A DNA stretch of 64,000 nucleotides from Candidatus Moraniibacteriota bacterium (lineage in GTDB: Bacteria; Patescibacteriota; Minisyncoccia; Moranbacterales; UBA1568): the NCBI GenBank assembly GCA_037201605.1, contig JBBCGM010000001.1:67310-131309 (forward strand), written 5' to 3'. Shown piece after piece: positions 21,280 through 38,244 of this stretch; positions within the stretch are counted from its first letter, which is position 1, and every line of letters starts with the position of its first letter. The position numbers were made by a program, and so were the translations under genes. Under the pieces are notes generated by a model. That model did not search any database. It was given only the letters and a program-made list of their open reading frames with translations, and had not been told where the DNA came from.

Positions 21280-23239
21280 GCGTAATTGGCTTCTGTAGCC
21301 TTCTGGATTCTTTCCTCATCCTCCTCATCCGGAGGAAAGGCGATTTGGTCTTGGTAAGCGGTAGCGTCAGATATGTCGTCGTGAATGGAGTTCGGGAAGC
21401 GAAGCAATTCGTCTTCTAGCTCCTCGCACTCGTATTCAACGTGATAAATGCTGCCGGATTCGTAGCGCGGTTGGAGGGCGCCGCGTATCCTTGCCTCTTT
21501 CATCGTTTGCTTGTGGTCAAGCTCAACAATAGGGAGGAAGACTTTGCGTCGGCGCATTTCATCGTCTAAGAACTGCTTGAGCACCTGAAGATACATGGTC
21601 TTCTCGATGCCAATGGCAACGTAATGACGCTTCTCGTGGAGTATGAAAATGATGGTCTCAATCAGCTCTTTAGGGAGCAGTTTCTTGCCCCAAGCCTTGA
21701 GATTCCAGAAGTTCTCTGTATCGACGCTGTTGTCGCAGAAACCAGTGTTATCCGCGTTTTCCCGCTGCGAGATAGCCGTGTCGATGGTGAGAAAGTTATT
21801 GGTTCTCAGACCGTCGACTTCACGTTGAGTGCGATATTTGAATATCCTCTTGGGAAATTCCTGGGTCGCTTCGTCAATCGGCTGGTTAAGCATCTCGGCT
21901 GAGTAAGTCGTAGAGCCAAGCCGGCGTTTCTTCGTCTCAAGAGATACCTTGTTCGTATCTTTCGCTTCTTGGTCGGTCATAACGTACTTAGCAGGCCATG
22001 TAGGCTTCCCCTTCCTCTCAGCTCCCATCATGCGGACACGTAAGTTCGGATCTGTTTTGGAGCGGTCAATGAGCGCCTGCACGGATCCCATTTCCGTAAT
22101 GTAGTTTCCGAGATAGATCGTAAGGGCGTCAGGAGCGAGGCCTGAGGCGAATTCGTCTATATGGCTGATCACCTGCTGGGTGTAAGCCTTCGATACCTTG
22201 GTCTTATTTGTCTCGAAATCATCTAGAGAAGGAAGTCCGGACGCTGATCCTGAAAGATACGTCCTCGAACCGATTCCTGAGTGGAATGGGCTTCAACCAT
22301 GATTCCGTTCGACGTAAGGAACTTAGAAATACGCTTCATCGCCATTTCGTCCTGCTCACGCTTCTTTGAGAACAGTTGCCCGAAGTCTTTGATGAGCTTC
22401 TTGTTCTGCATGAGGGCAGACGAGACATCGAAGAGCATTGCCTCAGCGTTTGCTTTGTCGAATGAGTCGACATTGAGATAGCGGCGAAGTCCGTAACAGA
22501 TCGTATGTGTCAGCCCAGCTATTTTAGCGATCGACGTCTTTGCTGATTCGCGGAAAATAAACCAGCCGAGTTCGCGTATCCTGAGGGCGAATAAGTCCTC
22601 TAGGTCGTCGAACATCTCAAAATGAAAAGGTGCAAACTGATACTTGATGTATTTCGGAAAGTACCAAGCCGTAAACAAGAGACGATTATTCCGGCACGCT
22701 TCCTTCCTGCTTCCGGAGACATCTTCTCCAGCAGGCTCAGCGCTTTCAGTAGTCGTTCGTTGTCCATTGTTCAAAATGTCCTTCAGGGCATCCAAATTCT
22801 CTCGATCTTCCTTTGACAATCCTTTCTCGAGTGGTGTTCCGTTCGGGCCAGATACCTCTTGGCGTTCGCTGTAACCCTGGTCTTTTCCTTGGGTCTTTGC
22901 GATAAACTTTGCCGTGTCTTGCTTGATGCGAATGAGAGCGGGGTCAGTCCTCACAATCTCTACATCGTCGTCGAGCTTGAGGATATCGATAGGCATATCT
23001 AGAGTCTCTTCAAGAGCCTGTTCTGCCTTTTCGAGGAGTCTCTTTCTCCTTCCGATAGACTCCGATAGCCATTCGGGGGCGAGATGAGTAATGTTTTCGG
23101 CGTATTCTTGGCTGTAACCAGCCCTTAAAGCGCTTTGGAGAGCATTGCCGAATGTGTCCGATTTTGGATCATTGTAATAGCGAAGAAACTCTATCTGCCG
23201 AGGTGTCAGTTCATCGTTACTTTTTCCTGCTTCTGACAT
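21276..23239 (-). CDS. terminase: TerS-like HTH domain fused to TerL ATPase and nuclease (frame break at about 22223-22300)
   Basis: N-terminus TPRQIEFLRYYNDPKSDTFGNALQSALRAGYS resembles terminase small subunit. RESAKTS is a Walker-A-like motif. C-terminal ORF carries the FPNSIHDDISDATAY nuclease motif. The lower frame is open from the TGA at about 22300 down to 21276. Confidence 0.65.
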
Positions 23240-24054: not shown

Positions 24055-24231
24055 TTATTTTTGCCGATAAATACTGAATGTCCGTAACTCGCCTACATGC
24101 ACCTTCCCCCGTTTTTCGAAGTAGACCCAATGATTTTCGTTCTTTATGAATTTATCTACGAAGATCGTTCCATCCCTGAGCCTTACATAGATCCTCTTCC
24201 CTCGAGGGGCCGAAGAGTGAGGAGTTCTCAT
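24055..24231 (-). CDS. unannotated 58-aa basic protein; ATG overlaps the stop of the HicB-like gene (ATGA)
   Basis: manual translation MRTPHSSAPRGKRIYVRLRDGTIFVDKFIKNENHWVYFEKRGKVHVGELRTFSIYRQK; below the 60-aa cutoff of the ORF track. Confidence 0.4.
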   Translation of the reverse strand: MRTPHSSAPRGKRIYVRLRDGTIFVDKFIKNENHWVYFEKRGKVHVGELRTFSIYRQK

Positions 24232-24455
24232 AATTTTGTAGGGTACCTTCTGAGTCTATGCAGGAGACGATTCCACCAGTGACAAGGGACTTCATTCATG
24301 GTGAGGATGGCATCAGCCACCATATCCCATATTTCTTCCTCATTGCGGCCTTGGGTAAAGCAGTGGTTTCTCCCTGCAAATATCTCTGCAAGCCACCAGC
24401 CGTCCTCAGTCTCCCAAACATCTATCTGATACCTAAATTTATTCAGAGGATCCAT
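24228..24455 (-). CDS. HicB-like (UPF0150-type) antitoxin domain protein
   Basis: DGWWLAEIFAGRNHCFTQGRNEEEIWDMVADAI matches the HicB N-domain pattern (GGY-A-VPELPGC-TQG-T-EEA-----EAI). Confidence 0.5.
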   Translation of the reverse strand: MDPLNKFRYQIDVWETEDGWWLAEIFAGRNHCFTQGRNEEEIWDMVADAILTMNEVPCHWWNRLLHRLRRYPTKL

Positions 24456-24457
24456 AT

Positions 24458-25300
24458 TTAAAAATTACCGTAATTACATTGGAAGCATTGCAAACCAAGG
24501 TCCCGCCATAGCTTGACCACCTGGTCTCGATCGTCGAATACGCAGTCCACATGATATTTTCCCCTGACATACTGATCGAACAATTCATTTTTCACGATGT
24601 AGTCCTTTCGCATATCTCCCTCTTGACGCATATACAAGTGTGTTGATTCAAAGAGTTTCAAATCAGGGAAATGTTCCGTAATCCATGTAGCCGTTTGATT
24701 GGCGCACACACTGTCTCGGCCGCTAAGAAAGATAAGGTGCTTACCCCTAGCGACTGTCGTAACGACATCAATAACCTTTTTAATCGGCTCATCCCCTCCA
24801 ACCTTTGCCCAGTCATAGGGACTCCGGTGTCTCCCTTCAGATATTGTCCCGTCAATATCACAAATCACCGCCCTAGGGAGATGCTCAGGATTATCATACT
24901 TCTGCGGAACAGAATACTGATTTGCCATACCACGAATCACTGCCTCGCCTACAGGATTAAGTCGCTTAGCGTCCCTTTCGATGCATTCCTCAATCGAGGT
25001 ATCGAATTCTTTTACTTCAACGAGAGACCCGTTCGCCTTAGCTATTTCCCGAAGGGTCTTCTCGTGCACGGGATTGAAGTTGGTGTCGTCGCAGATGATA
25101 TTCACTCTCTCCTGGAGAGCTAGACGAACAATGAAATCTCGTACCTTGAGAAGAAATTTCTCATTGGACTTTGTATGAACGCTGTTATCCAACATGGCCC
25201 GTAAGTCGTCCTTGTTGACCCTTTTGTATCCTTTCTGCTCCCTGGCCCAGGTTGTTTTGCCTGATCCCGGCAGTCCCTTGAGAATAATTAGCTTTGCCAT
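24458..25300 (-). CDS. pseT: polynucleotide kinase/3'-phosphatase, T4 PseT-like
   Basis: N-terminal P-loop ILKGLPGSGKTTWARE; C-terminal HAD motifs VICDIDGT ... LSGR ... FDDRDQVV; looks collinear with T4 Pnk along its length. Confidence 0.85.
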   Translation of the reverse strand: MAKLIILKGLPGSGKTTWAREQKGYKRVNKDDLRAMLDNSVHTKSNEKFLLKVRDFIVRLALQERVNIICDDTNFNPVHEKTLREIAKANGSLVEVKEFDTSIEECIERDAKRLNPVGEAVIRGMANQYSVPQKYDNPEHLPRAVICDIDGTISEGRHRSPYDWAKVGGDEPIKKVIDVVTTVARGKHLIFLSGRDSVCANQTATWITEHFPDLKLFESTHLYMRQEGDMRKDYIVKNELFDQYVRGKYHVDCVFDDRDQVVKLWRDLGLQCFQCNYGNF

Positions 25301-25301
25301 A

Positions 25302-25925
25302 TTAGTATTTGAGTAAGAGTAATCCGTCCTTCTCCATAGGTATTTGCTCGGTCATGGTGGTGTAATTAAACGGCTTAGTGATGATGTGCCAGCCGTTCTT
25401 TGTGGGGTATTGTTTAACGATCTGATCCGATACGCCGCTCTCTTCGAATATTGCAAGAGCTCTATCGAGAGTCAGCGGATTATCCACGTCGAATTTGAAG
25501 AATGTTTCTCCACGACTAGACGGCCGCATCATTGCCGAACTCATGCGACTCTTAATACCGAGGAAGAAATAGAGCCATGACTCGTAGTCAGCATCGTCGT
25601 TATCGAGGAGATCGTGCTTGAATTGCCTAACAGCCTTTTTCATGTCCCGGCAGTTGACCGTACTGTAAATCCGGAGTCCCTCAATGGAAGACCGGGACCG
25701 ATCCTCAAGAAGGCAACCAAGCGCTTCTTCGAATTCTTTCTTTCCATTGGTGAAGAACATCCGTAAGTGTCGTGAAGCATGACTCGCCCCGTCTTTGGAG
25801 CGATGGATAAGCATAATCACGCGAACGCCTTCCACGAACTCTGGAAAGTATTCCACGATACATTTTGCTTCATTCTGAGCATCGACTGTGTAGGCGATCG
25901 GTTTCTTTTCTCTGGTGTGTCCCAT
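25302..25925 (-). CDS. hypothetical protein inside the RNA-repair cassette
   Basis: 207 aa, no motif recognised with confidence (weak 2H-phosphoesterase-like HRS and HIIT elements); stop is 1 nt from the pnkp start. Confidence 0.4.
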   Translation of the reverse strand: MGHTREKKPIAYTVDAQNEAKCIVEYFPEFVEGVRVIMLIHRSKDGASHASRHLRMFFTNGKKEFEEALGCLLEDRSRSSIEGLRIYSTVNCRDMKKAVRQFKHDLLDNDDADYESWLYFFLGIKSRMSSAMMRPSSRGETFFKFDVDNPLTLDRALAIFEESGVSDQIVKQYPTKNGWHIITKPFNYTTMTEQIPMEKDGLLLLKY

Positions 25926-25926
25926 A

Positions 25927-26166
25927 TCAGTTGGCGCTTTCTAGGTCTTCAGTTCCTGCGTCCAGGAGCTTTGTCTCCCGTTCGAGGAAGCGGAAACTTT
26001 TGAGCTTGTAGGACTCGAAGGCAAACAATGTTTCTTTGCGAAGCACAATACCCTCCTCAGGCACTTGCGCGGCGCACATGAAGCAGTCCTTTTCGGTGTA
26101 TTTCTTCTCTAATTTCTTTATAAATTCCTCATGCCAGTGATTTTCGGGATCAATCTCAGGGAACAA
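25927..26166 (-). CDS. small ORF overlapping the RNA ligase 3' end (possible frame-shifted C-terminal extension of the ligase)
   Basis: 49-nt overlap with 26118..27209 in a different frame. Confidence 0.3.
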   Translation of the reverse strand: MFPEIDPENHWHEEFIKKLEKKYTEKDCFMCAAQVPEEGIVLRKETLFAFESYKLKSFRFLERETKLLDAGTEDLESAN

Positions 26167-27209
26167 ATCCTTGGCTTTCCAGAAAAGAAAAGATGGACGT
26201 ACTCTAAACCGAAGCGCTCGCAGAATTCCTTGATCTGGTGAGAGGAGAGATCTAGTACATTGCCGTCTGCATTCGTGACAGTGATCCTGTAGACCTGGAT
26301 GCGCTTAGTTCCTTGAGTACAGCCGTAGTCGTAGCCAACCTGAATAGGAGCGCCGTCCTTGGTATATCCGAGAATCTCGCCGTATATGGTATAGCCCTTC
26401 GGGAGAAATTCGCGGAGTTCGTTTTTGGCCTCTTCCCAAAGATCGTAATTGTAGAAATGCGCTTTTTGAGCAGTTTCGAATTCATTCTTGACAACGCGGC
26501 GGGAACCATAAACATAGTCGTACTCGGTTTCCTGGATAGGCAAGAGCTTCCTAAGAAATTTCAGGAAGATATTCAGCTTCTTCTTTACCAATACATGCGC
26601 CACCCAAAAGGACGTACCGTGCGTTTTGTAACTAATAGAAATATGGTCTTCCGGCTTGATCAGAAAAGCGTTCCTGCGAAGTTGCTCAGTATCGACATGA
26701 AGGCGCACCTGGCCCTCAACAAGGCGAGAAATACGGGGCTTCTGGCCCATACGCAGTGCTCGTGGCTCACGAGCCTGAATCACGTATTTTTTGCAGAGCA
26801 ATATCTTTCCGACAGTGTCGAATTCACACCCGACATAGTCTATGAGACTCTCACCAACAAACGCCTCTACAGTACTGAGGGGAGCAAGATATCCCATTGA
26901 TTTTTGTCCGCGAAGCTTTACGGCCCGGACGCGACCGTTCTTGTCAAAATACCCTTTTACCGTTGTGTCTTTGTTGAGAAGCTGAGAACTGAAAGAGTCG
27001 GTCTCCTTTAGGAATTCGTAATTGATCTGGCACTCCAGAGGAAAGAAAACATAGAGATCTCCAATCTTGGCATCCTGGCCGGTAATAACGTCCTGGAAAT
27101 CCACAGTCGCTACCTGAAGACGATCTGCGTTATCGTGCTTGCGAAGAGCTTTAAGCTCTACAATTTTTGCTAAGTAATTGGGATTCGCGTCTTGAGAAGT
27201 AGAGATCAT
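26118..27209 (-). CDS. ATP-dependent RNA ligase (Rnl2/DraRnl-like) with N-terminal extension
   Basis: motif I YKTHGTSF (compare T4 Rnl2 KIHGTN) at about residue 195; same operon as Pnkp. Confidence 0.6.
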   Translation of the reverse strand: MISTSQDANPNYLAKIVELKALRKHDNADRLQVATVDFQDVITGQDAKIGDLYVFFPLECQINYEFLKETDSFSSQLLNKDTTVKGYFDKNGRVRAVKLRGQKSMGYLAPLSTVEAFVGESLIDYVGCEFDTVGKILLCKKYVIQAREPRALRMGQKPRISRLVEGQVRLHVDTEQLRRNAFLIKPEDHISISYKTHGTSFWVAHVLVKKKLNIFLKFLRKLLPIQETEYDYVYGSRRVVKNEFETAQKAHFYNYDLWEEAKNELREFLPKGYTIYGEILGYTKDGAPIQVGYDYGCTQGTKRIQVYRITVTNADGNVLDLSSHQIKEFCERFGLEYVHLFFSGKPRICSLRLIPKITGMRNL

Positions 27210-27321
27210 AAAGAGCTTTTATTATTGAGGGGTGAGATTAAAAAGTCTCTTAGTAGCTTTGATTATTTCGTAGCACTCTTGAGGCGTTTTCGTTTCTCCA
27301 ACGTGGATCTGACGACCGAAA

Positions 27322-27597
27322 TCATGGGCAAGGGTTCGATAGACTTTTTTCCGACTTCCGACTGTATTTTCCGCTTTTCCAAAGAGGATCTATCACGCCA
27401 TGTGCCTCTTTTCTTGCTTTCCGTAAATCTGCTTTCGCAAGAAACTGACCCTTGGGCTTCTTTGTATTTTGGTGACATCCAATATATGCATCGCAAGGGC
27501 GACAAAGCCAGATCATGTAAGAAGTTCCGTAGTTTCTGCCATAGACTTCCTTATTCTCTACCCATTCAGCTTGTTGTCCGCAATGATTGCACTGCAC
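27322..27597 (-). CDS. DUF3268-like zinc-finger phage protein (frame break in C-terminal part)
   Basis: CNHCGQQAEW...WLCRPCDAYIGCHQNTKKPKGQFLAKADLRKARKEAHGVIDPLWKSGKYSRK matches the DUF3268 pattern; overlapping ORF 27263..27505 in another frame. Confidence 0.5.
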   Translation of the reverse strand: MQCNHCGQQAEWVENKEVYGRNYGTSYMIWLCRPCDAYIGCHQNTKKPKGQFLAKADLRKARKEAHGVIDPLWKSGKYSRKSEKSLSNPCP

Positions 27598-27611
27598 ACT
27601 CTTTCTGTTCT

Positions 27612-27884
27612 TTATGGTTTATTATGTTCGATTGCTTTTTCTATATATTCCAAAAGGGATTCAGTGGTAATTGTTGGCTCATAGATTTGCCGCATGATGT
27701 GTTCGTTGAGAAGTTTCAACTCGAATATCCTTCCAGCCGCGTAGGCTTCTTTCAGTTTCACCTCTAGGAAATGCACCGCTTCCTCATAGGGAACATAAAG
27801 CATGGTTGAGCCTTCGTACCCCGTGGGCGTTCCCACGATAGGCTTGAATATCTCTCTAAATTCTTTCAATATTTGAGGGATCAT
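27612..27884 (-). CDS. hypothetical protein; ATG overlaps the HAD gene stop (ATGA)
   Basis: 90-aa ORF. Confidence 0.4.
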   Translation of the reverse strand: MIPQILKEFREIFKPIVGTPTGYEGSTMLYVPYEEAVHFLEVKLKEAYAAGRIFELKLLNEHIMRQIYEPTITTESLLEYIEKAIEHNKP

Positions 27885-28333
27885 AAATCTTCAATATGTA
27901 AAGCTTTGTCGTCTAAATAGAGATCGGCACCAGGTTTCATAGTCATACAGATTCCATGGAACGGATGTGATGCTTAATAAGCCAAGCGTGTGTAGCTGCG
28001 TACATTCTCGGTTGCCTAGCCGTTGTAGAGAACAATGTGAGCGCCATTTTGATAGAGGTCCGTAATCATTTTCACTATCGACTCATTCGGAATTGGTTCA
28101 GAGTCTTCCGGGCGACCCCAATATTCACCCAGACAGAGAGTGCCATCCATATCAACAGCTACTAATTGGTCGTTAGGATTCTTAAGAATTTTTTTGAGAT
28201 ATGATTTTTTCATTTTCTTCATTTCATTGGTTAGTATTTGTCGTTGAGGATGTCTTGCATGAACGGCCCGACTATGAGAAAAAATGCTCCCAGAGAAATT
28301 AGAGTTACTGCAAATGGTTTTATCCCAAAGCAT
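27881..28333 (-). CDS. HAD-family phosphatase (frame break near 28016)
   Basis: motif I VAVDMDGTL in 28016..28333. Manual translation of 27881..28015 continues with KPGADLYLDDKALHIEDL (HAD motif IV-like) in another frame. Confidence 0.45.
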
Positions 28334-29809: not shown

Positions 29810-31039
29810 TTATTCGTTGCTATCGTCAGTCTCCACGAGTTTTCCATCTACCAGCTTGTACCACTGATCTGCCTTCACTTTCTTCCCATCTACCTTGACT
29901 GATTTGACACGAAGAGGCTTAGCGTCAGTGAAGGCCTCACCTTCTTTCCATTCAGCAAGAACAAGGAAGCAACCTTTAGAGGCCTTGGCCTTGGCTTTCC
30001 GTCCGACTGCTACGGCGATGGCATCATCGCCGCTCGTAGCCGAGTGGGCGCCGTATCCGCTCGTAGCCGAGTTGGCGCGGTTTCCGCTCGTAGCCGAGTG
30101 GGCGTAGGTTCCGCTCGTAGCCGAGTGGGCGTCGTCTCCGCTCGTAGCCGAGTGGGCGTCGTCTCCGCTCGTAGCCGAGTGGGCGTCGTCTCCGCTCGTA
30201 AGCCGAGTGGGCGCCGTATCCGCTCGTAGCCGAGTTGGCGCGGTTTCCGCTCGTAGCCGAGTGGGCGTAGGTTCCGCTCGTAGCCGAGTGGGCGCCGTAT
30301 CCGCTCGTAGCCGAGTTGGCGCGGTTTCCGCTCGTAGCCGAGTGGGCGTAGGTTCCGCTCGTAGCCGAGTTGGCGCGGTTTCCGCTCGTAGCCGAGTGGG
30401 CGTCGTCTCCGCTCGTAGCCGAGTGGGCGTAGGTTCCGCTCGTAGCCGAGTGGGCGTCGTCTCCGCTCGTAGCCGAGTGGGCGTCGTCTCCGCTCGTAGC
30501 CGAGTGGGCGTAGGTTCCGCTCGTAGCCGAGTTGGCGCGGTTTCCGCTCGGTAGCCGAGTTGGCGCGGTTTCCGCCTCGTAGCCGAGTGGGCGTCGTCTC
30601 CGCTCGTAGCCGAGTTTTTCTTTGAAACTTTAGTAGCTTTCTCAAAAATGAAAGCTACAGAAGCATCGATGAAAGCTTTCAGATCAAGCTTCGCACCGAT
30701 CCTGATATGATTCGTAACTGATTTACTTCCGTCTGACTCCACCTTTCCCAGAGCTTCAACTTCCGTAAACTCATTCCCATCTCTGAGAGGATAAAATCCT
30801 AGAACATCTAAAGGATTCTCGCAGAAATGAAAACCGGTGGAGCAGAGCTCGGGATCACTCTCTTTTTTGTATTCTTTCCCCTCTTCGTATTGAAAGCTGC
30901 GGCATTTTAGCCCCTTCTCAAAACCCTTGTATCCCTTGATAACTTTTACTGATTTCTTTTTAGCTGGCATATGGTTGTTTTTTGATGCTGTAACAATTAG
31001 ATAAATAATTCCGACGCCGGCGAGAATGAAATAGAGCAT
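29810..31039 (-). CDS. repeat protein: N-terminal domain, about 21 nine-residue repeats (SGDDAHSAT-type), basic C-terminal domain
   Basis: N-terminus KGYKGFEKGLKCRSFQYEEGKEYK...CSTGFHFCENPLDVLGFYP resembles the conserved N-domain of phage/Firmicute pentapeptide-like repeat proteins. The ORF passes through all three frames of the 27-bp repeat. Confidence 0.55.
   Translation of the reverse strand: MLYFILAGVGIIYLIVTASKNNHMPAKKKSVKVIKGYKGFEKGLKCRSFQYEEGKEYKKESDPELCSTGFHFCENPLDVLGFYPLRDGNEFTEVEALGKVESDGSKSVTNHIRIGAKLDLKAFIDASVAFIFEKATKVSKKNSATSGDDAHSATRRKPRQLGYRAETAPTRLRAEPTPTRLRAETTPTRLRAETTPTRLRAEPTPTRLRAETTPTRLRAETAPTRLRAEPTPTRLRAETAPTRLRADTAPTRLRAEPTPTRLRAETAPTRLRADTAPTRLTSGDDAHSATSGDDAHSATSGDDAHSATSGTYAHSATSGNRANSATSGYGAHSATSGDDAIAVAVGRKAKAKASKGCFLVLAEWKEGEAFTDAKPLRVKSVKVDGKKVKADQWYKLVDGKLVETDDSNE
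30030..30616. repeat. about 21 tandem copies of a 27-bp unit (tccgctcgtagccgagtgggcgtcgtc and variants); no stop codon in any of the three minus-strand frames
   Basis: direct reading; variant cores ccgtat, gcggtt, gtaggt, gtcgtc; single-base insertions at about 30197, 30546 and 30575. Confidence 0.85.
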
Positions 31040-32577: not shown

Positions 32578-32591
32578 TTCTTTTTTTGTGT

Positions 32592-32668
32592 GGATCCGCC
32601 CGGAATCGAACCGGGTTCTCAGGGTTGCACGTTGGCCTTTACCCTGATCGAAGCCAATTCAGACCCAG
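32592..32668 (-). tRNA. lone tRNA 3' fragment (T-arm CCCGG-TTCGATT-CCGGG plus acceptor 3' strand CGGATCC-A) with no complementary 5' acceptor strand nearby
   Basis: manual reverse complement; preceded by an atypical 6-bp stem with a 15-nt loop; directly upstream of the 32577 ORF. Confidence 0.4.
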
Positions 32669-32675
32669 GAACTTC

Positions 32676-32810
32676 TTTTTAGAGATTGATAGGGAAGACT
32701 CACGCTTGTTGACAACGTCGTTATGAGAGGTTGCCCTTGCCGCTTTTTATTTCCGGTGTATACCCCAGAGAGTCTTCGGACGTACAAGCTCCCCTATCAA
32801 TCTCTAAAAT
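32676..32810 (-). ncRNA. structured non-coding element: perfect 18-19 bp inverted repeat enclosing about 97 nt
   Basis: ttttagagattgataggg (32677-32694) and ccctatcaatctctaaaa (32792-32809). Confidence 0.35.
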
Positions 32811-32823
32811 TGAAATGAACTTA

Positions 32824-32892
32824 GGGGGACGCTCTAGCCACTGAGCTATAGGAGCCGAAGCTCCTAGTCGGATTCGAACCGACGACCTCCCC
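32824..32892 (-). tRNA. circularly permuted tRNA-like unit P2: 3' half (GGGGA-GGTC-GTCGG-TTCGAAT-CCGAC-TAGGAGC), TTCG, then 5' half (GCTCCTA-TA-GCTC-AGTGGCTA-GAGC-G-TCCCC)
   Basis: acceptor 7/7 and anticodon stem 5/5 complementary between halves; canonical D-arm and T-loop; halves in reversed order with UUCG closing the acceptor stem. Confidence 0.45.
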
Positions 32893-32962
32893 GTGGGCTT
32901 GCTCAACTACTGAGCTACACAGCCCGAGAGCTGTGATGGGATTTGCACCCACGTCCTCGCCC
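32893..32962 (-). tRNA. circularly permuted tRNA-like unit P1, degenerate: 3' half (GGGCG-AGGAC-GTGGG-TGCAAAT-CCCAT-CACAGCT), CTCG, then 5' half (GGCTGTG-TA-GCTC-AGTAGTT-GAGC-A-AGCCC)
   Basis: acceptor 7/7 with one G-U; anticodon stem 4/5; non-canonical D loop (no GG) and T loop (TGCAAAT). Confidence 0.35.
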
Positions 32963-36341: not shown

Positions 36342-37242
36342 CTACCATTGTACGACACCCGCGTTTCTATTTCTTCTGCTCCCTCTTTGAGACCAGGCCG
36401 GTAAAGGCGTCAAAGTGGATCTGACTCTCAGGAATAGCAAGGCCCGAGGAGCAAAGCTTTCATGGGCCTCATTAAAGGATGGTGAGCCCACGACATAGTA
36501 CACGCTGCCGATGGGATTGTCCACGTGGCGGTCCAAAAGCGCAGCGTCGATAAATCCGCGCTCATCAAGCTCTCCTTGGCTCGGTGCCGTCTCGTGATCC
36601 AAAACGTCAACATAGTGAAAATTGGCTAAAGAGAGGCCTCGCAACTCAGCTCCGAAAGAAATATCCTCACGGCTCCGGTTGGCATAGAGAAGCGTGAAGC
36701 TCTCGGCACTACCGGTAAGGGTTCGCTTCCTTCAAGATGCTCCGCACTGGAGTAATACCAATCCCACCCACGATAAAGACAAGAGGTCTGGTCTCCGTAG
36801 CTTCCAGTACGAATTTGCCGATAACCGGAGTGATAGAGGCTTCCTCGCCAGGCTGCATAGCCCACAAAGCCTTCTTAAACGGGCTTTGGGTATTACGCAG
36901 GGCGAAACCCAATCGTTCTTCATGCGGGGCAGAGCAAATCGAAAGCGAGCGTACCGGGCCCTGCGGATCGGGCTCGGAAAGATTGGGCAAACGCAGCACC
37001 GTATACTGACCCGCCCTAAACGTAAAATCAGCCGGCTTTTCAAACCAGAACACGGATGTGTCACGGGCTATTTCTTCACGGGCAAACAAGGCGGATGTTT
37101 TGCATAGAGAGTAATGGGCTATTAGTCTATTGTAAAAAGCGCTTTTCAGACTGTCAAAGTTTCTCAGCATCCTGGAAAACATCTTCGAACGCCTCCCACT
37201 CCAGAAGCATGGTAATGAGGCGTGCCAGCTTTTCGCTGTCAT
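36342..37242 (-). CDS. ferredoxin-NADP reductase-like FAD/NAD-binding oxidoreductase (fragmented into 3 ORFs)
   Basis: FTFRAGQYTVLRL ... SICSAP ... LVFIVGGIGITP; C-terminal NAD-domain pieces in 36342..36865. Confidence 0.5.
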
Positions 37243-38244
37243 GGCGAATGAAAGAGCGGTAGCGGGGCTACCGCATCAACCTTGCTTTTCACCACCTGCT
37301 TACGGGAGAGCAGATCAGTTGCAATGACTTTGGCGCGCTTGGCCGTTTTCGGACGCTCTCCGGAGAGGACAAGTTCGCTGTCTTCCTTTCGATAGCGGGC
37401 GAGAAGTGTCGCACTGGGACGGCGCTTATTGAATGTGACGAAATCGATGCGTTCGCCTCCCAAGAAGCGATTAATCTCGGCTACATAATCCCAAAGTGCA
37501 AACCCATCCGTGTGCCCCCGCTTGTTCACGAGGTTACAATTGTAGACTACTGTAGCTCGCGAGCGTCGGATAGCTTCCGGAATGCCTGGCACCAAGAGAT
37601 TGGGGCAGAATGCTGCAATAATGATTGCCGGGCCCGATGACAATCAAATCGGCCTCGCGGATCTTCTGCAGGGCATTCGGATTGGCTACCGGTTTTGGCT
37701 CCAGGAAAGTGCGGCGGATACCCGTGCGGCCAAGCCTCTTATCGGTATTAATAGCATGTTCACCGCGCAGCTTAGTACCATTTTTGAGCGTCACGCAGAG
37801 CTCCGTATCCGAACTCGTCACCGGCAGCACTTCGCCGCGGACGTTCAGAAGAGTGGCAGCCTCATGCACGGCTGAAAGAAAATCACCTGTGATCTTTTCA
37901 AGAGCGGAAAGCAAGAGGTTGCCGAAACTGTGGCCGGAGAGGCCGCCATGCTCAAATCGGTATGTCATGAGATCGCGAAGCGTTTCCGAGGAATCGGAAA
38001 GGGCTACCAGGCACTGGCGCACGTCACCCGGAGGCAGAACGCCCAGCTCGTCGCGCAAGATGCCGGTACTGCCGCCATCGTCTGCCATAGAGACAATAGC
38101 CGAGAGCTCGGACTGGATACTGCTTGAGGCCCGAAAGAGCGTAAAGCTGCCTGTCCCGCCGCCGATAGTAACAATCTTTTTCATCAGTCGGAGCGCTGGG
38201 AATCGAACCCAGACTAGATGGTCCCAAACCACCCGTACTACCAC
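37239..38244 (-). CDS. yvcK: YvcK/CofD-family protein (gluconeogenesis-factor-like), split in two
   Basis: KKIVTIGGGTGSFTLFRA ... IVSMADDGGSTGILRDELGVLPPGDVRQCLVALS; C-half ADLIVIGPG ... LLVPGIPEAI in the second ORF. Confidence 0.6.

What the first reader, a model, noticed from the sequence alone, without database searches (positions are those of the whole stretch)
24055..28333. Phage RNA healing-and-sealing operon: T4-like Pnkp plus RNA ligase with uncharacterised partners (207-aa protein, DUF3268 zinc finger, HAD phosphatase)
Nine tightly packed or overlapping minus-strand genes form one operon. They encode a HAD phosphatase, a 90-aa protein, a DUF3268 zinc finger, an RNA ligase (motif I KTHGTS), a 79-aa ORF, a 207-aa unknown, Pnkp (P-loop kinase plus DxDGT phosphatase, T4-like along its length as judged by eye), HicB-like and a 58-aa ORF. 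In T4, Pnkp plus Rnl1 reverse anticodon-loop cleavage by the host nuclease PrrC. An equivalent cassette here implies the host or competing elements deploy tRNA-targeting nucleases. The conserved 207-aa and zinc-finger proteins may be specificity factors or nuclease inhibitors and are the novel component. The operon lies about 4.5 kb from the permuted tRNA-like genes.
Basis: partly seen in the sequence, partly recalled or inferred. Interest (0 to 1): 0.7.

Follow-up and report, generated by a model that had tools for sequence, protein, structure and literature searches.

The report
Phage RNA-repair operon with primase-like partner
A prophage carries a tightly packed RNA break-repair gene set (end-healing enzyme plus nick-sealing RNA ligase), and the unknown 207-aa protein between them belongs to a large unannotated family, predicted to have a primase-like fold, that sits beside RNA-repair genes in many unrelated phages.

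Summary
The genes are real, but the region holds eight genes, not nine. The 79-aa ORF is the C-terminus of the RNA ligase, cut off by a 1-base indel. The HAD and DUF3268 genes are split the same way, most likely by assembly error. Pnkp is intact and T4-like along its full length.

Among 17 non-redundant loci with wide flanks, 11 carry a polynucleotide kinase and 12 an RNA ligase. Across all fetched loci the ligases are of five types, and neighbours also include metallophosphatases, a CCA-adding enzyme, tRNA arrays and YrlA-like RNAs.

Best reading: a heal, fill-in and seal RNA-repair module whose nucleotidyltransferase is primase-like. DUF3268, the 90-aa protein and the "HicB-like" protein are not conserved partners. 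This is a new variant of a known kind, of moderate to high interest.

The parts
27881..28222 (-). Small stand-alone HAD (DxDGT, 'DMDGT') phosphatase, about 113 aa after repair of two 1-nt indels (about 28022-28025 and 27963-27964). Its stop overlaps the next start (ATGA).
   Evidence: Read from the sequence. Repaired protein: PHROG 1238 at 1.2e-20 over residues 12-110, and the Pnkp phosphatase PHROGs 415 and 505 at about 1e-8. PDB 1xpj at 1.5e-4. The unrepaired ORF gives only Hydrolase_3 at 0.093.
27612..27884 (-). 90-aa protein with no family. Not conserved near relatives of the 207-aa protein.
   Evidence: No Pfam, PHROG or NCBIfam hit. Found only in the window among 92 sequences searched (91 loci plus the window).
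27222..27597 (-). DUF3268 zinc-finger protein (CxxC...CxxC), about 125 aa after repair of an indel in the A-run at 27345-27350. Not a conserved partner.
   Evidence: PF11672 at 1.8e-24. Repaired protein: PHROG 1934 at 7.9e-30 over residues 2-117. Seen in only one other locus (L083), on the opposite strand and 3.4 kb away.
25927..27209 (-). Rnl5-type ATP-dependent RNA ligase, 427 aa after repair of a 1-nt indel in the A-run at 26176-26178. It comprises the listed 363-aa and 79-aa ORFs. It has an N-terminal OB domain and an NTase domain with motif I K195-T-H-G-T-S, motif IV E386-G and motif V K402-L-K404. There is no C-terminal domain.
25302..25925 (-). 207-aa protein, intact. It belongs to a large unannotated family and is predicted to be a minimal AEP (primase-polymerase)-like nucleotidyltransferase. 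Residues R42, D146, D148, G178 and H180 are invariant across both subfamilies. K44, R85, K97 and T175-K-N are nearly invariant. D200 is conserved only in subfamily A.
24458..25300 (-). T4-type polynucleotide 5'-kinase / 3'-phosphatase (Pnkp), 280 aa, intact. P-loop GLPGSGKT and acyl-phosphatase motif D148-I-D-G-T.
   Evidence: PF25109 HAD_PNKP at 1.6e-49 and AAA_33 at 6.3e-20. PHROG 505 at 2.4e-84 over residues 1-280. PDB: C. gingivalis Pnkp1 4xrp at 3.8e-38, T4 Pnkp 1ltq at 7e-34 over the full length.
24228..24455 (-). 75-aa protein, weakly HicB-like. Not a conserved partner.
   Evidence: PHROG 5243 at 4.8e-4 and PHROG 8245 'HicB-like antitoxin' at 5.4e-3. No Pfam or NCBIfam hit. One relative, in L067.
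24055..24231 (-). 58-aa ORF with no family. Its start overlaps the stop of the 75-aa gene (ATGA).
   Evidence: Found only in the window.

Best explanation
The block is the RNA-repair module of a prophage or phage recorded in a Candidatus Moraniibacteriota MAG. It is transcribed as one unit with its neighbours.

Proposed steps:
1. Pnkp converts the 2',3'-cyclic or 3'-phosphate and 5'-OH ends left by a ribonuclease into 3'-OH and 5'-phosphate ends.
2. The 207-aa protein is a minimal primase-polymerase (AEP)-like nucleotidyltransferase that uses D146/D148 and H180. It adds ribonucleotides at the healed 3'-OH. This either replaces bases lost at the break or fills a short gap against a paired strand.
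3. The Rnl5-type ligase then seals the resulting nick, which has an RNA 3'-OH, within a duplex or stem.
4. The small stand-alone HAD may be a second end-phosphatase.

Shown here: the identities of Pnkp and the ligase, the frame repairs, the size and conservation of the 207-aa family, and its recurrent linkage to RNA-repair genes.

Inferred: the AEP fold (a predicted structure only), the nucleotidyltransferase activity, RNA (tRNA-like) as the substrate, and the order of the steps.
For: Enzyme identities.

The genes are packed with 1-nt gaps or ATGA overlaps, and no internal promoter-like or terminator-like site was found.

The 207-aa family:
- The AF2 model is confident (pLDDT 91.7).
- DxD is followed after 32 residues by T-K-N-G-W-H plus a hydrophobic strand. 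This is the same order and spacing as 'EWDD...TGGKSIHHYW' in S-2L PrimPol, read by eye.

Linkage:
- The order ligase, 207-aa, kinase/Pnkp is conserved at 66% identity (L001).
- It is also conserved at about 20% identity (L022: Rnl5-like, 205 aa, Pnk kinase, metallophosphatase, all abutting).
- Among 17 non-redundant loci with at least 16 kb of flank, 11 have a Pnk. That compares with 5.9% of 50,697 whole phage genomes (binomial 3e-10). Five have an Rnl5-like ligase, against 0.75% (1e-7). Twelve have some RNA ligase.
- Across all fetched loci the neighbouring ligases are of five types: Rnl5-like, two PF09414 types, RNA_lig_T4_1 (including a kinase-Metallophos-ligase fusion) and RtcB.
- Cellulophaga phage phi17:2 has a CCA-adding enzyme as the next gene.
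- tRNA arrays and YrlA-like RNAs lie in the same islands.

Literature:
- Phage RNA-repair systems are described as ligase plus kinase/phosphatase plus an NTase that restores lost nucleotides (PMC7824862).
- RlaP, a Pol-beta NTase linked to RNA ligases, adds 1-2 NMPs to damaged RNA (PMC12776372).
- Rnl5 ligases need an RNA 3'-OH at a duplex nick (PMC4408790).
Against: - No Pfam, NCBIfam or PDB sequence or profile match exists. hhalign against the S-2L PrimPol family is null.
- The third acidic residue expected of an AEP (D200) is not conserved in the distant subfamily.
- About a quarter of the wide-flank loci show no Pnk or ligase within 10 kb.
- A DnaB-like helicase is adjacent in a few loci, which is compatible with a replicative primase.
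- The co-occurrence statistics compare metagenomic loci with cultured-phage genomes and ignore shared ancestry.
- Three of the eight genes here are frame-broken in the deposited sequence.
Confidence: 0.5

Rival explanations
1. A LigD-like repair of DNA, or RNA-primed DNA, carried out by separate proteins. The AEP-like protein fills gaps in nicked phage DNA with ribonucleotides. Pnkp cleans 3'-phosphate and 5'-OH ends. The Rnl5 ligase joins the RNA 3'-OH to the DNA 5'-phosphate. The trio mirrors the POL, phosphoesterase and LIG domains of bacterial LigD.
For: - Rnl5 enzymes accept DNA as the 5'-phosphate and template strands. Their authors speculated about repair of gaps filled with an RNA patch (PMC4408790).
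- T4-type Pnkp acts on DNA as well (established knowledge).
- YqaJ, DnaB and DNA-ligase genes lie in some neighbourhoods.
Against: - The family's recurrent neighbours are RNA-centred: RtcB, Rnl1-type ligases, a CCA-adding enzyme, tRNA arrays, YrlA-like RNAs and Band_7.
Confidence: 0.2
2. The 207-aa protein is simply a small replicative or plasmid-type primase (RepB'-like) of the phage. It lies beside Pnkp and ligase only because all of them sit in the nucleic-acid-metabolism module.
For: - A DnaB-like helicase lies within 300-600 nt in four groups (L010, L086, L052, L084).
- In several loci Pnkp or the ligase is 5-9 kb away, not adjacent.
Against: - Pnk and RNA ligases are far more frequent near the family than in phage genomes overall. 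DnaB is seen in only 6 of 69 groups.
- The linkage persists across five unrelated ligase types and two phosphatase types.
- L022 keeps the ligase, 205-aa, kinase, phosphatase string abutting at 20% identity.
- This window shows no phage helicase or polymerase among the 28-38 kb ORFs scanned.
Confidence: 0.15
3. The cassette is a decaying remnant. The frameshifts in the HAD, DUF3268 and ligase genes are real mutations in a defective prophage, so no repair function operates in this genome.
For: There are four indels in 4.3 kb of the block and one more in the terminase. The deposited annotation has the truncated ligase.
Against: - All the indels lie in short homopolymer runs, and there are no in-frame stop codons.
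- Conservation is equal before and after the ligase shift.
- A host-like CofD gene looks split as well.
- Pnkp and the 207-aa gene are intact.
Confidence: 0.1
4. The 207-aa protein is a non-catalytic cofactor: a specificity factor, a scaffold for ligase and Pnkp, or a nuclease inhibitor.
For: No sequence-level link to any enzyme family. Motif III is not universal.
Against: The invariant residues are a DxD pair, a histidine and several Arg/Lys on a polymerase-like predicted fold. That pattern is typical of a metal- and NTP-dependent active site and not of a binding surface.
Confidence: 0.1

Closest known systems
Bacteriophage T4 Pnkp + Rnl1 (and Rnl2) tRNA/RNA repair
   Same: Same healing enzyme: a bifunctional P-loop kinase plus DxDGT phosphatase, collinear with T4 Pnkp. 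It is combined with an ATP-dependent RNA ligase in a phage.
Rnl5 family nick-sealing RNA ligases (Deinococcus DraRnl, Naegleria NgrRnl)
   Same: Domain organisation and fold. A weak but specific TIGR02306 (DRB0094) match and a match to the N-domain of 5cot. Relatives are named 'RNA ligase (TIGR02306 family)' by JGI.
   Different: 427 aa instead of about 340, with inserts in the NTase domain. Motif I is KTHG, against KLDG in NgrRnl (PMC4408790). The score is far below the equivalog cutoff (31.5 against 151 bits). The gene is phage-encoded and sits in an operon with Pnkp.
RlaP (PF10127, RNA-ligase-associating Pol-beta nucleotidyltransferase), CCA-adding enzymes and Thg1 in RNA-repair neighbourhoods
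   Same: Same genomic 'syntax': a small nucleotidyltransferase-like protein beside RNA ligases and Pnk/phosphatases. The proposed role is to restore lost nucleotides before ligation (PMC7824862; PMC12776372; PMC2904730).
   Different: A different predicted fold (AEP-like, not Pol-beta or the Thg1 palm). No Pfam match to any of these families. The activity is untested.
Archaeo-eukaryotic primase (AEP/PrimPol) superfamily: RepB' of RSF1010, cyanophage S-2L PrimPol, LigD polymerase domain
   Same: Best structural matches. DxD and s-x-x-G-x-H motifs occur in the same order and spacing.
   Different: Much smaller and stand-alone, with no helicase, zinc-finger or helix-bundle domain. No detectable sequence or profile similarity. 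Motif III is not universal. The genomic context is RNA repair, not replication or NHEJ.
Bacterial Pnkp/Hen1 and Pnkp1-Rnl-Hen1 RNA repair systems; Rsr(Ro60)-Y RNA-RtcB operons
   Same: The Pnkp is closest in the PDB to Capnocytophaga Pnkp1 (3.8e-38). YrlA-like RNAs lie nearby in the window and in relatives. A kinase-Metallophos-ligase fusion like bacterial Pnkp neighbours the family in L014.
   Different: No Hen1 methyltransferase was identified in the block itself; the rest of the window was not fully scanned. No Ro60/TROVE or RtcB was found here either, though only part of the window was scanned. The YrlA-like hits are below Rfam's gathering score.

Membership tests
T4-type polynucleotide kinase-phosphatase (Pnkp) | N-terminal P-loop kinase (GxxGxGK[ST]) followed by a C-terminal DxDxT acyl-phosphatase (HAD_PNKP) in one polypeptide | tested here: met
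   GLPGSGKT and DIDGT read from the sequence. AAA_33 at 6.3e-20 and PF25109 at 1.6e-49, both above their cutoffs.
T4-type polynucleotide kinase-phosphatase (Pnkp) | Collinear full-length similarity to T4 Pnkp | tested here: met
   1ltq: residues 1-280 to 1-301, E 7.1e-34. PHROG 505: 1-280 to 1-295 of 295, E 2.4e-84.
T4-type polynucleotide kinase-phosphatase (Pnkp) | 5'-kinase and 3'-phosphatase activity on polynucleotides | not testable with these tools
   Needs a biochemical assay.
Rnl5 RNA ligases (DraRnl/NgrRnl) | N-terminal OB-fold domain plus NTase domain, with no C-terminal appendage | tested here: met
Rnl5 RNA ligases (DraRnl/NgrRnl) | Covalent nucleotidyltransferase motifs I (KxxG lysine), IV and V | tested here: met
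   K195, H197, G198, E386, G387, K402 and K404 are invariant in 30 homologues. Motif I is KTHG, against KLDG in NgrRnl.
Rnl5 RNA ligases (DraRnl/NgrRnl) | Score above the curated equivalog model TIGR02306 (RNA_lig_DRB0094) | tested here: not met
   31.5 bits against a cutoff of 151.15. It is a distant or sister clade, not an equivalog.
Rnl5 RNA ligases (DraRnl/NgrRnl) | Seals duplex nicks that have an RNA 3'-OH strand | not testable with these tools
   This property is known for DraRnl and NgrRnl (PMC4408790). It is inferred here.
Rnl1 (T4 RnlA, anticodon-loop sealing) | RNA_lig_T4_1 (PF09511) NTase with the Rnl1 C-terminal tRNA-specificity domain | tested here: not met
AEP / PrimPol superfamily (for the 207-aa protein) | AEP catalytic fold | tested here: inconclusive
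AEP / PrimPol superfamily (for the 207-aa protein) | Motif I (hhhDxD) and motif II (sGxGxH) in that order | tested here: met
   F-D146-V-D148 and T175-K-N-G-W-H180 are invariant or nearly invariant across both subfamilies. The spacing resembles that of S-2L PrimPol.
AEP / PrimPol superfamily (for the 207-aa protein) | Motif III acidic residue | tested here: inconclusive
   D200 is nearly invariant in subfamily A. It is replaced by N, S or K in most of subfamily B.
AEP / PrimPol superfamily (for the 207-aa protein) | Sequence or profile similarity to a recognised AEP family | tested here: not met
   No AEP Pfam family at E<=10 for 28 members. No PDB sequence hit. hhalign against S-2L PrimPol gives probability below 1%.
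RlaP (PF10127) RNA-ligase-associating nucleotidyltransferase | Pol-beta NTase fold or a PF10127 match | tested here: not met
DUF3268 (PF11672) | Pfam match above the gathering score | tested here: met
   86.8 bits against 28.4.
HicB antitoxin (75-aa protein) | HicB-family profile match and a partner HicA | tested here: inconclusive
   Only PHROG 8245 at E 5.4e-3. No Pfam hit. No HicA was identified in the block.

The most novel reading that the evidence does not exclude
The 207-aa family is a previously unrecognised clade of minimal primase-polymerase (AEP) enzymes dedicated to RNA repair. It would make a short ribonucleotide patch, or a bridging splint, at a healed RNA break. That would convert the break into the duplex nick that nick-sealing ligases (Rnl5 or Rnl2 type) require. 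Phages could then undo ribotoxins that excise nucleotides (RloC-like), which heal-and-seal alone cannot reverse.
Probability: 0.35. Interest if true: 0.8.

Novelty: new variant of a known kind. Interest (0 to 1): 0.6.

Why it matters
Phage Pnkp-plus-ligase repair is textbook, but two questions remain open. One is what the nick-sealing Rnl5 and Rnl2 ligases repair in vivo. The other is how phages cope with nucleases that remove bases and do not merely cut.

A widespread, unannotated, primase-like protein wedged between ligase and Pnkp gives a concrete candidate for the missing fill-in step. It can be tested with three purified proteins. Its neighbours across phages include five ligase types, CCA-adding enzymes, tRNA arrays and Y-RNA-like genes.

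The family is absent from Pfam and NCBIfam and is labelled 'hypothetical' in cultured phages (Cellulophaga phi17:2, Tenacibaculum pT24, a crAss-like phage); the Lak megaphage records that also carry it have no annotation. Naming it would improve annotation broadly.

The finding also shows that the apparent extra ORFs here are artefacts of homopolymer indels in the assembly.

Tried and rejected
- blastn of the whole block against 50,697 phage records gave only a 54-nt Pnkp match.
- tblastn of the 207-aa protein against the same records gave nothing. Only a distant family member (L021 type) reaches cultured phages.
- Pfam, NCBIfam and PDB sequence searches of the 207-aa protein and of its family profile gave nothing meaningful.
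- hhalign of the family against S-2L PrimPol, alone or with three homologues, was null. The homologue search for that AEP domain returned only 4 proteins.
- The afdb50 fold library was unavailable.
- RSF1010 (RepB') could not be fetched from the plasmid collection.
- Domain fusions among the 150 best representatives were uninformative. One Endonuclease VII fusion is probably a homing insertion.
- Burroughs & Aravind 2016 (PMC5062991) and Iyer et al. 2005 (PMC1176014) are not in the held library. I recall from memory that the former's abstract mentions 'RNA-acting prim-pol domains'. Whether it covers this family is unverified.
- The DUF2828 neighbour has no PDB sequence hit, so a Ro60 relationship is untested.
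- A DnaG-like primase suspected by eye in L022 (11728-12708) had no Pfam hit, so I do not use it as an argument.
- The perfect promoter plus terminator unit at 23841-23719 folds no better than shuffled sequence.


Full report
**Setting.** The window has a lower-GC region (about 0.44-0.51 over roughly 18-36 kb, more variable upstream; the left boundary was not determined) carrying minus-strand phage genes such as terminase, and a higher-GC region (0.50-0.56). The higher-GC part carries a CofD-like gene and five tRNA genes. The 207-aa protein is 100% identical to NCBI 'MAG: hypothetical protein WDN67_00705 [Candidatus Moraniibacteriota bacterium]' on a 235,604-bp contig. I read the window as a prophage, or a phage contig joined to host DNA, in a candidate-phyla-radiation (CPR) bacterium.

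**Observation.** They are packed with ATGA overlaps or gaps of 1-14 nt. No sigma-70-like promoter or intrinsic-terminator-like site on that strand lies inside the block. The first terminator-like hairpin downstream is at 23738-23719. This is weak evidence, but it is consistent with co-transcription.

The gene count needs correcting because the sequence carries single-base indels in short homopolymers.
- The ligase ORF (26118-27209, 363 aa) and the '79-aa ORF' (25927-26166) are one gene, broken in the A-run at 26176-26178.
- The repaired 427-aa protein matches PHROG 968 'RNA ligase' from residue 8 to 417 (6.8e-62).
- It aligns without a gap through the junction to homologues of 423-436 aa. The closest, at 72% and 68% identity, are exactly 427 aa.
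- DUF3268 continues in another frame after the A-run at 27345-27350.
- The HAD gene has two shifts, near 28022-28025 and 27963-27964.
- The repaired DUF3268 and HAD proteins match PHROG 1934 and PHROG 1238 along their length.

The large terminase is split in the same way near 22172-22223. The host-like CofD gene also looks split. NCBI's annotation contains the truncated 363-aa ligase (P0060). The ligase segment downstream of the shift is as conserved as the upstream part (70-74% against 63-72% identity to five homologues). There are no in-frame stop codons. I therefore attribute the breaks to assembly error and not to decay, although only the reads can settle this. The block holds eight genes.

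**Pnkp.** The 280-aa protein is intact.
- It hits PF25109 (HAD_PNKP) at 1.6e-49 and AAA_33 at 6.3e-20.
- It hits PHROG 505 over its whole length.
- In the PDB it matches Capnocytophaga Pnkp1 (3.8e-38) and T4 Pnkp over residues 1-280 to 1-301 (7e-34).
- The P-loop GLPGSGKT and the acyl-phosphatase motif DIDGT are present.

**Ligase.** Pfam finds an N-terminal PHA02142 OB domain and an RNA_ligase NTase domain. NCBIfam gives only a weak hit to TIGR02306, the DRB0094 (DraRnl) family (31.5 bits, cutoff 151). A four-sequence profile touches the N-domain of Naegleria NgrRnl and the NTase domain of T4 Rnl2 at about 1e-3.

The protein ends about 23 residues after motif V, so it has no C-terminal domain. 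Motifs I (K195-T-H-G), IV (E386-G) and V (K402-x-K404) are invariant in the family. By architecture and fold this is an Rnl5-type ligase, although it is a distant clade with inserts.

Characterised Rnl5 enzymes seal nicks in duplexes whose 3'-OH strand is RNA. Their physiological substrates are unknown (PMC4408790). The N-domain also resembles tRNA-binding OB domains (3bu2, CsaA, MetRS C-terminal domain). That is a lead pointing towards tRNA.

The family is large (1,693 hits at E<=1e-5). It is present in 379 of 50,697 GenBank phage records, mostly actinophages.

**The 207-aa protein.** It has no Pfam or NCBIfam hit, and only PHROG 14949 'unknown function' at 2.9e-10.
- A word-indexed search found 59 relatives.
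- An exhaustive profile search found 1,459 cluster representatives at E<=1e-3, and 232 at E<=1e-30. Nearly all are stand-alone proteins of 175-225 aa.
- A more distant subfamily (about 20% identity) is present in Cellulophaga phage phi17:2, Tenacibaculum phage pT24, the Lak megaphages and a crAss-like phage. Where those records are annotated it is called 'hypothetical protein'.
- Across both subfamilies R42, D146, D148, G178 and H180 are invariant.
- K44, R85, K97 and T175-K-N are nearly invariant, as is the P-F-N that follows the histidine strand.

- NrS-1 primase-polymerase and Prim-PolC.
Non-AEP hits of similar score cover only 55-90 residues.

The order and spacing of F-D-V-D, then about 32 residues, then T-K-N-G-W-H plus a hydrophobic strand, mirror 'EWDD...TGGKSIHHYW' of S-2L PrimPol.

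Several results count against a firm call.
- No sequence or profile method links the family to any AEP.
- The expected third acidic residue (D200) is not conserved in the distant subfamily.
I put the AEP-fold assignment at roughly 0.65.

**Genomic context of the family.** I collected 91 loci and grouped them into 69 non-redundant sets.
- In L001 (66% identity) the order is Rnl5-like ligase, 207-aa protein, two small ORFs, Pnkp.
- In L007 Pnkp directly follows the 207-aa homologue.
- L022 comes from a 117-kb viral contig, and its homologue is only about 20% identical. There an Rnl5-like ligase, the 205-aa homologue, a Pnk kinase and a calcineurin-like phosphatase abut one another.
- In L014 the neighbour 171 nt upstream is a 723-aa fusion of kinase, Metallophos and RNA_lig_T4_1, like bacterial Pnkp.
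- In Cellulophaga phage phi17:2 the next gene is a CCA-adding-type nucleotidyltransferase, followed by a PARP-like gene.
- In crAss-like phage cr116_1 an RNA ligase and a HicA gene lie 1.5 kb upstream.

Of the 17 non-redundant loci with at least 16 kb of total flank:
- 11 have a Pnk;
- 12 have an RNA ligase (11 by my HMMs plus the L014 fusion);
- 9 have both by the HMMs;
- 5 have an Rnl5-like ligase.

For comparison, Pnkp-like genes occur in 5.9% and Rnl5-like ligases in 0.75% of 50,697 whole phage genomes. The binomial tails are 3e-10 and 1e-7. These figures are rough, because the populations differ and shared ancestry is ignored.

Other recurrent neighbours include:
- two further PF09414 ligase types;
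- RtcB;
- stand-alone RNA_lig_T4_1;
- Metallophos;
- Band_7;
- RNase_T and Rv2179c-like exoribonucleases;
- Fic;
- DUF2828/DUF7788.
The neighbourhoods also contain YqaJ and, in six groups, DnaB.

The same small protein is thus linked to five unrelated ligase types and two phosphatase types. That is the pattern expected of a functional partner, not of one inherited operon.

In contrast, DUF3268, the 90-aa, the 75-aa and the 58-aa proteins occur in at most one other locus each. A small stand-alone HAD recurs in three groups, with only weak similarity to the one here.

**RNA elements.** There Rfam gives sub-threshold but specific matches on the operon strand:
- YrlA (Y RNA-like; 32808-32905; 33.9 bits; E 1.3e-4);
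- a 79-nt element matching only the tRNA-like domain of tmRNA (32588-32666; 40.4 bits; E 1e-13).

Sub-threshold YrlA-like hits also occur in six of the eight related loci I scanned. In five of them the hit lies at about the position inferred for a DUF2828/DUF7788 gene; the adjacency is exact in L044 and estimated from distances elsewhere. Several of these loci also hold tRNA arrays or tmRNA. Bacterial Y RNAs carry a tRNA-like domain and lie beside Ro60 orthologues in bacteria and phages (PMC4201824). This supports an RNA-centred island but is not part of the operon proper.

**Mechanism.** Published surveys describe phage RNA-repair systems as three parts: a ligase, kinase/phosphatase end-healing enzymes, and a nucleotidyltransferase (RlaP, CCA-adding enzyme or Thg1). 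The transferase restores nucleotides lost at the break, for instance after RloC excises the wobble base (PMC7824862). RlaP has now been shown to add one or two NMPs to damaged RNA 3' ends (PMC12776372).

The operon fits this syntax, with the 207-aa protein in the nucleotidyltransferase slot. Rnl5 ligases need an RNA 3'-OH at a duplex nick. A ribonucleotide-adding, gap-filling primase-polymerase is therefore a natural supplier of their substrate. I propose heal (Pnkp), then fill or extend (207-aa protein), then seal (Rnl5).

The enzyme identities and the linkage are shown. The activity of the 207-aa protein, its substrate and the order of steps are inferred.

**Rivals.** I considered four alternatives. 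The confidences are not meant to sum to one; decay is largely independent of the other readings.
- A LigD-like DNA repair with an RNA patch (0.2).
- An ordinary small replicative primase whose position is coincidental (0.15).
- A decaying cassette (0.1).
- A non-catalytic cofactor (0.1).

**Novelty.** The Pnkp-ligase pairing is known. The Rnl5-type ligase in phages is known (PMC4408790).

The 207-aa family, and its predicted primase-like nature in the nucleotidyltransferase slot of RNA-repair modules, is not in Pfam or NCBIfam. It is of unknown function in PHROGs. It does not appear in the 2021 survey of jumbo-phage repair components that I could read. I could not read Burroughs & Aravind 2016. 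From memory, that paper mentions 'RNA-acting prim-pol domains', so prior description cannot be excluded.

I rate the finding a new variant of a known kind, with interest 0.6.

Noticed in passing
window 32808-32905 (-) and 32588-32666 (-): There is a sub-threshold YrlA (Y RNA-like, RF02553) match (33.9 bits, E 1.3e-4). There is also a 79-nt element matching only the tRNA-like domain of tmRNA (RF00023, 40.4 bits, E 1e-13). They lie in a stretch of about 1.1 kb without a long ORF.
   Followed up: partly
L014 5348-5412; L058 12294-12402; L068 5666-5781; L037 6058-6158; L056 1069-1183; L044 1600-1667: YrlA-like sub-threshold hits (34-44 bits) occur on the strand of the 207-aa homologue in 6 of 8 related phage loci scanned. 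In five they lie at about the position inferred for a DUF2828/DUF7788 gene, which may be a Ro60-like partner (untested). tRNA arrays (L058, L015, L037) and a full tmRNA (L068) lie nearby.
   Followed up: partly
window 23841-23812 (-) and 23738-23719 (-): A perfect sigma-70 consensus (TTGACA, 18 nt, TATAAT, with an upstream TG) is followed about 70 nt later by a terminator-like hairpin. This could be a small transcript of about 90 nt between the repair block and the packaging genes. It folds no better than shuffled sequence.
   Followed up: partly
window 22172-22223; 26176-26178; 27345-27350; 27963-27964; 28022-28025; 37239-38244: Single-base indels in short homopolymers split the large terminase, the ligase, DUF3268 and the HAD gene (twice). 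A CofD-like host gene also looks split (frames not examined). This is the signature of an error-prone assembly, and ORF calls across the whole window should be treated with care.
   Followed up: partly
window 29810-31039 (-), repeat 30030-30615: A DUF7666 protein (PF24703, 1.3e-30) contains a 27/81-nt tandem repeat of about 21.6 copies at 89-91% identity. The repeat is open in several frames and gives spurious miRNA-model hits.
   Followed up: no
L014 7653-9821: A 723-aa phage protein fuses a P-loop kinase, a calcineurin-like phosphatase and an RNA_lig_T4_1 ligase, as in bacterial Pnkp. It lies 171 nt upstream of a homologue of the 207-aa protein.
   Followed up: partly
L092 (Cellulophaga phage phi17:2) 6001-8509: The gp033 homologue is followed directly by a CCA-adding-type nucleotidyltransferase (PF01743) and a WGR-PARP protein. 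An ATP-dependent DNA ligase follows two genes later.
   Followed up: partly
L016 9695-10195: Only the C-terminal 65 aa of the family (starting 'MIDIDT') is an ORF here. It is preceded by a 98-aa ORF ending '...EYLIHF' that may be the N-terminal part. The homologue is therefore possibly split or frameshifted, next to an Rnl5-like ligase and Pnkp.
   Followed up: no
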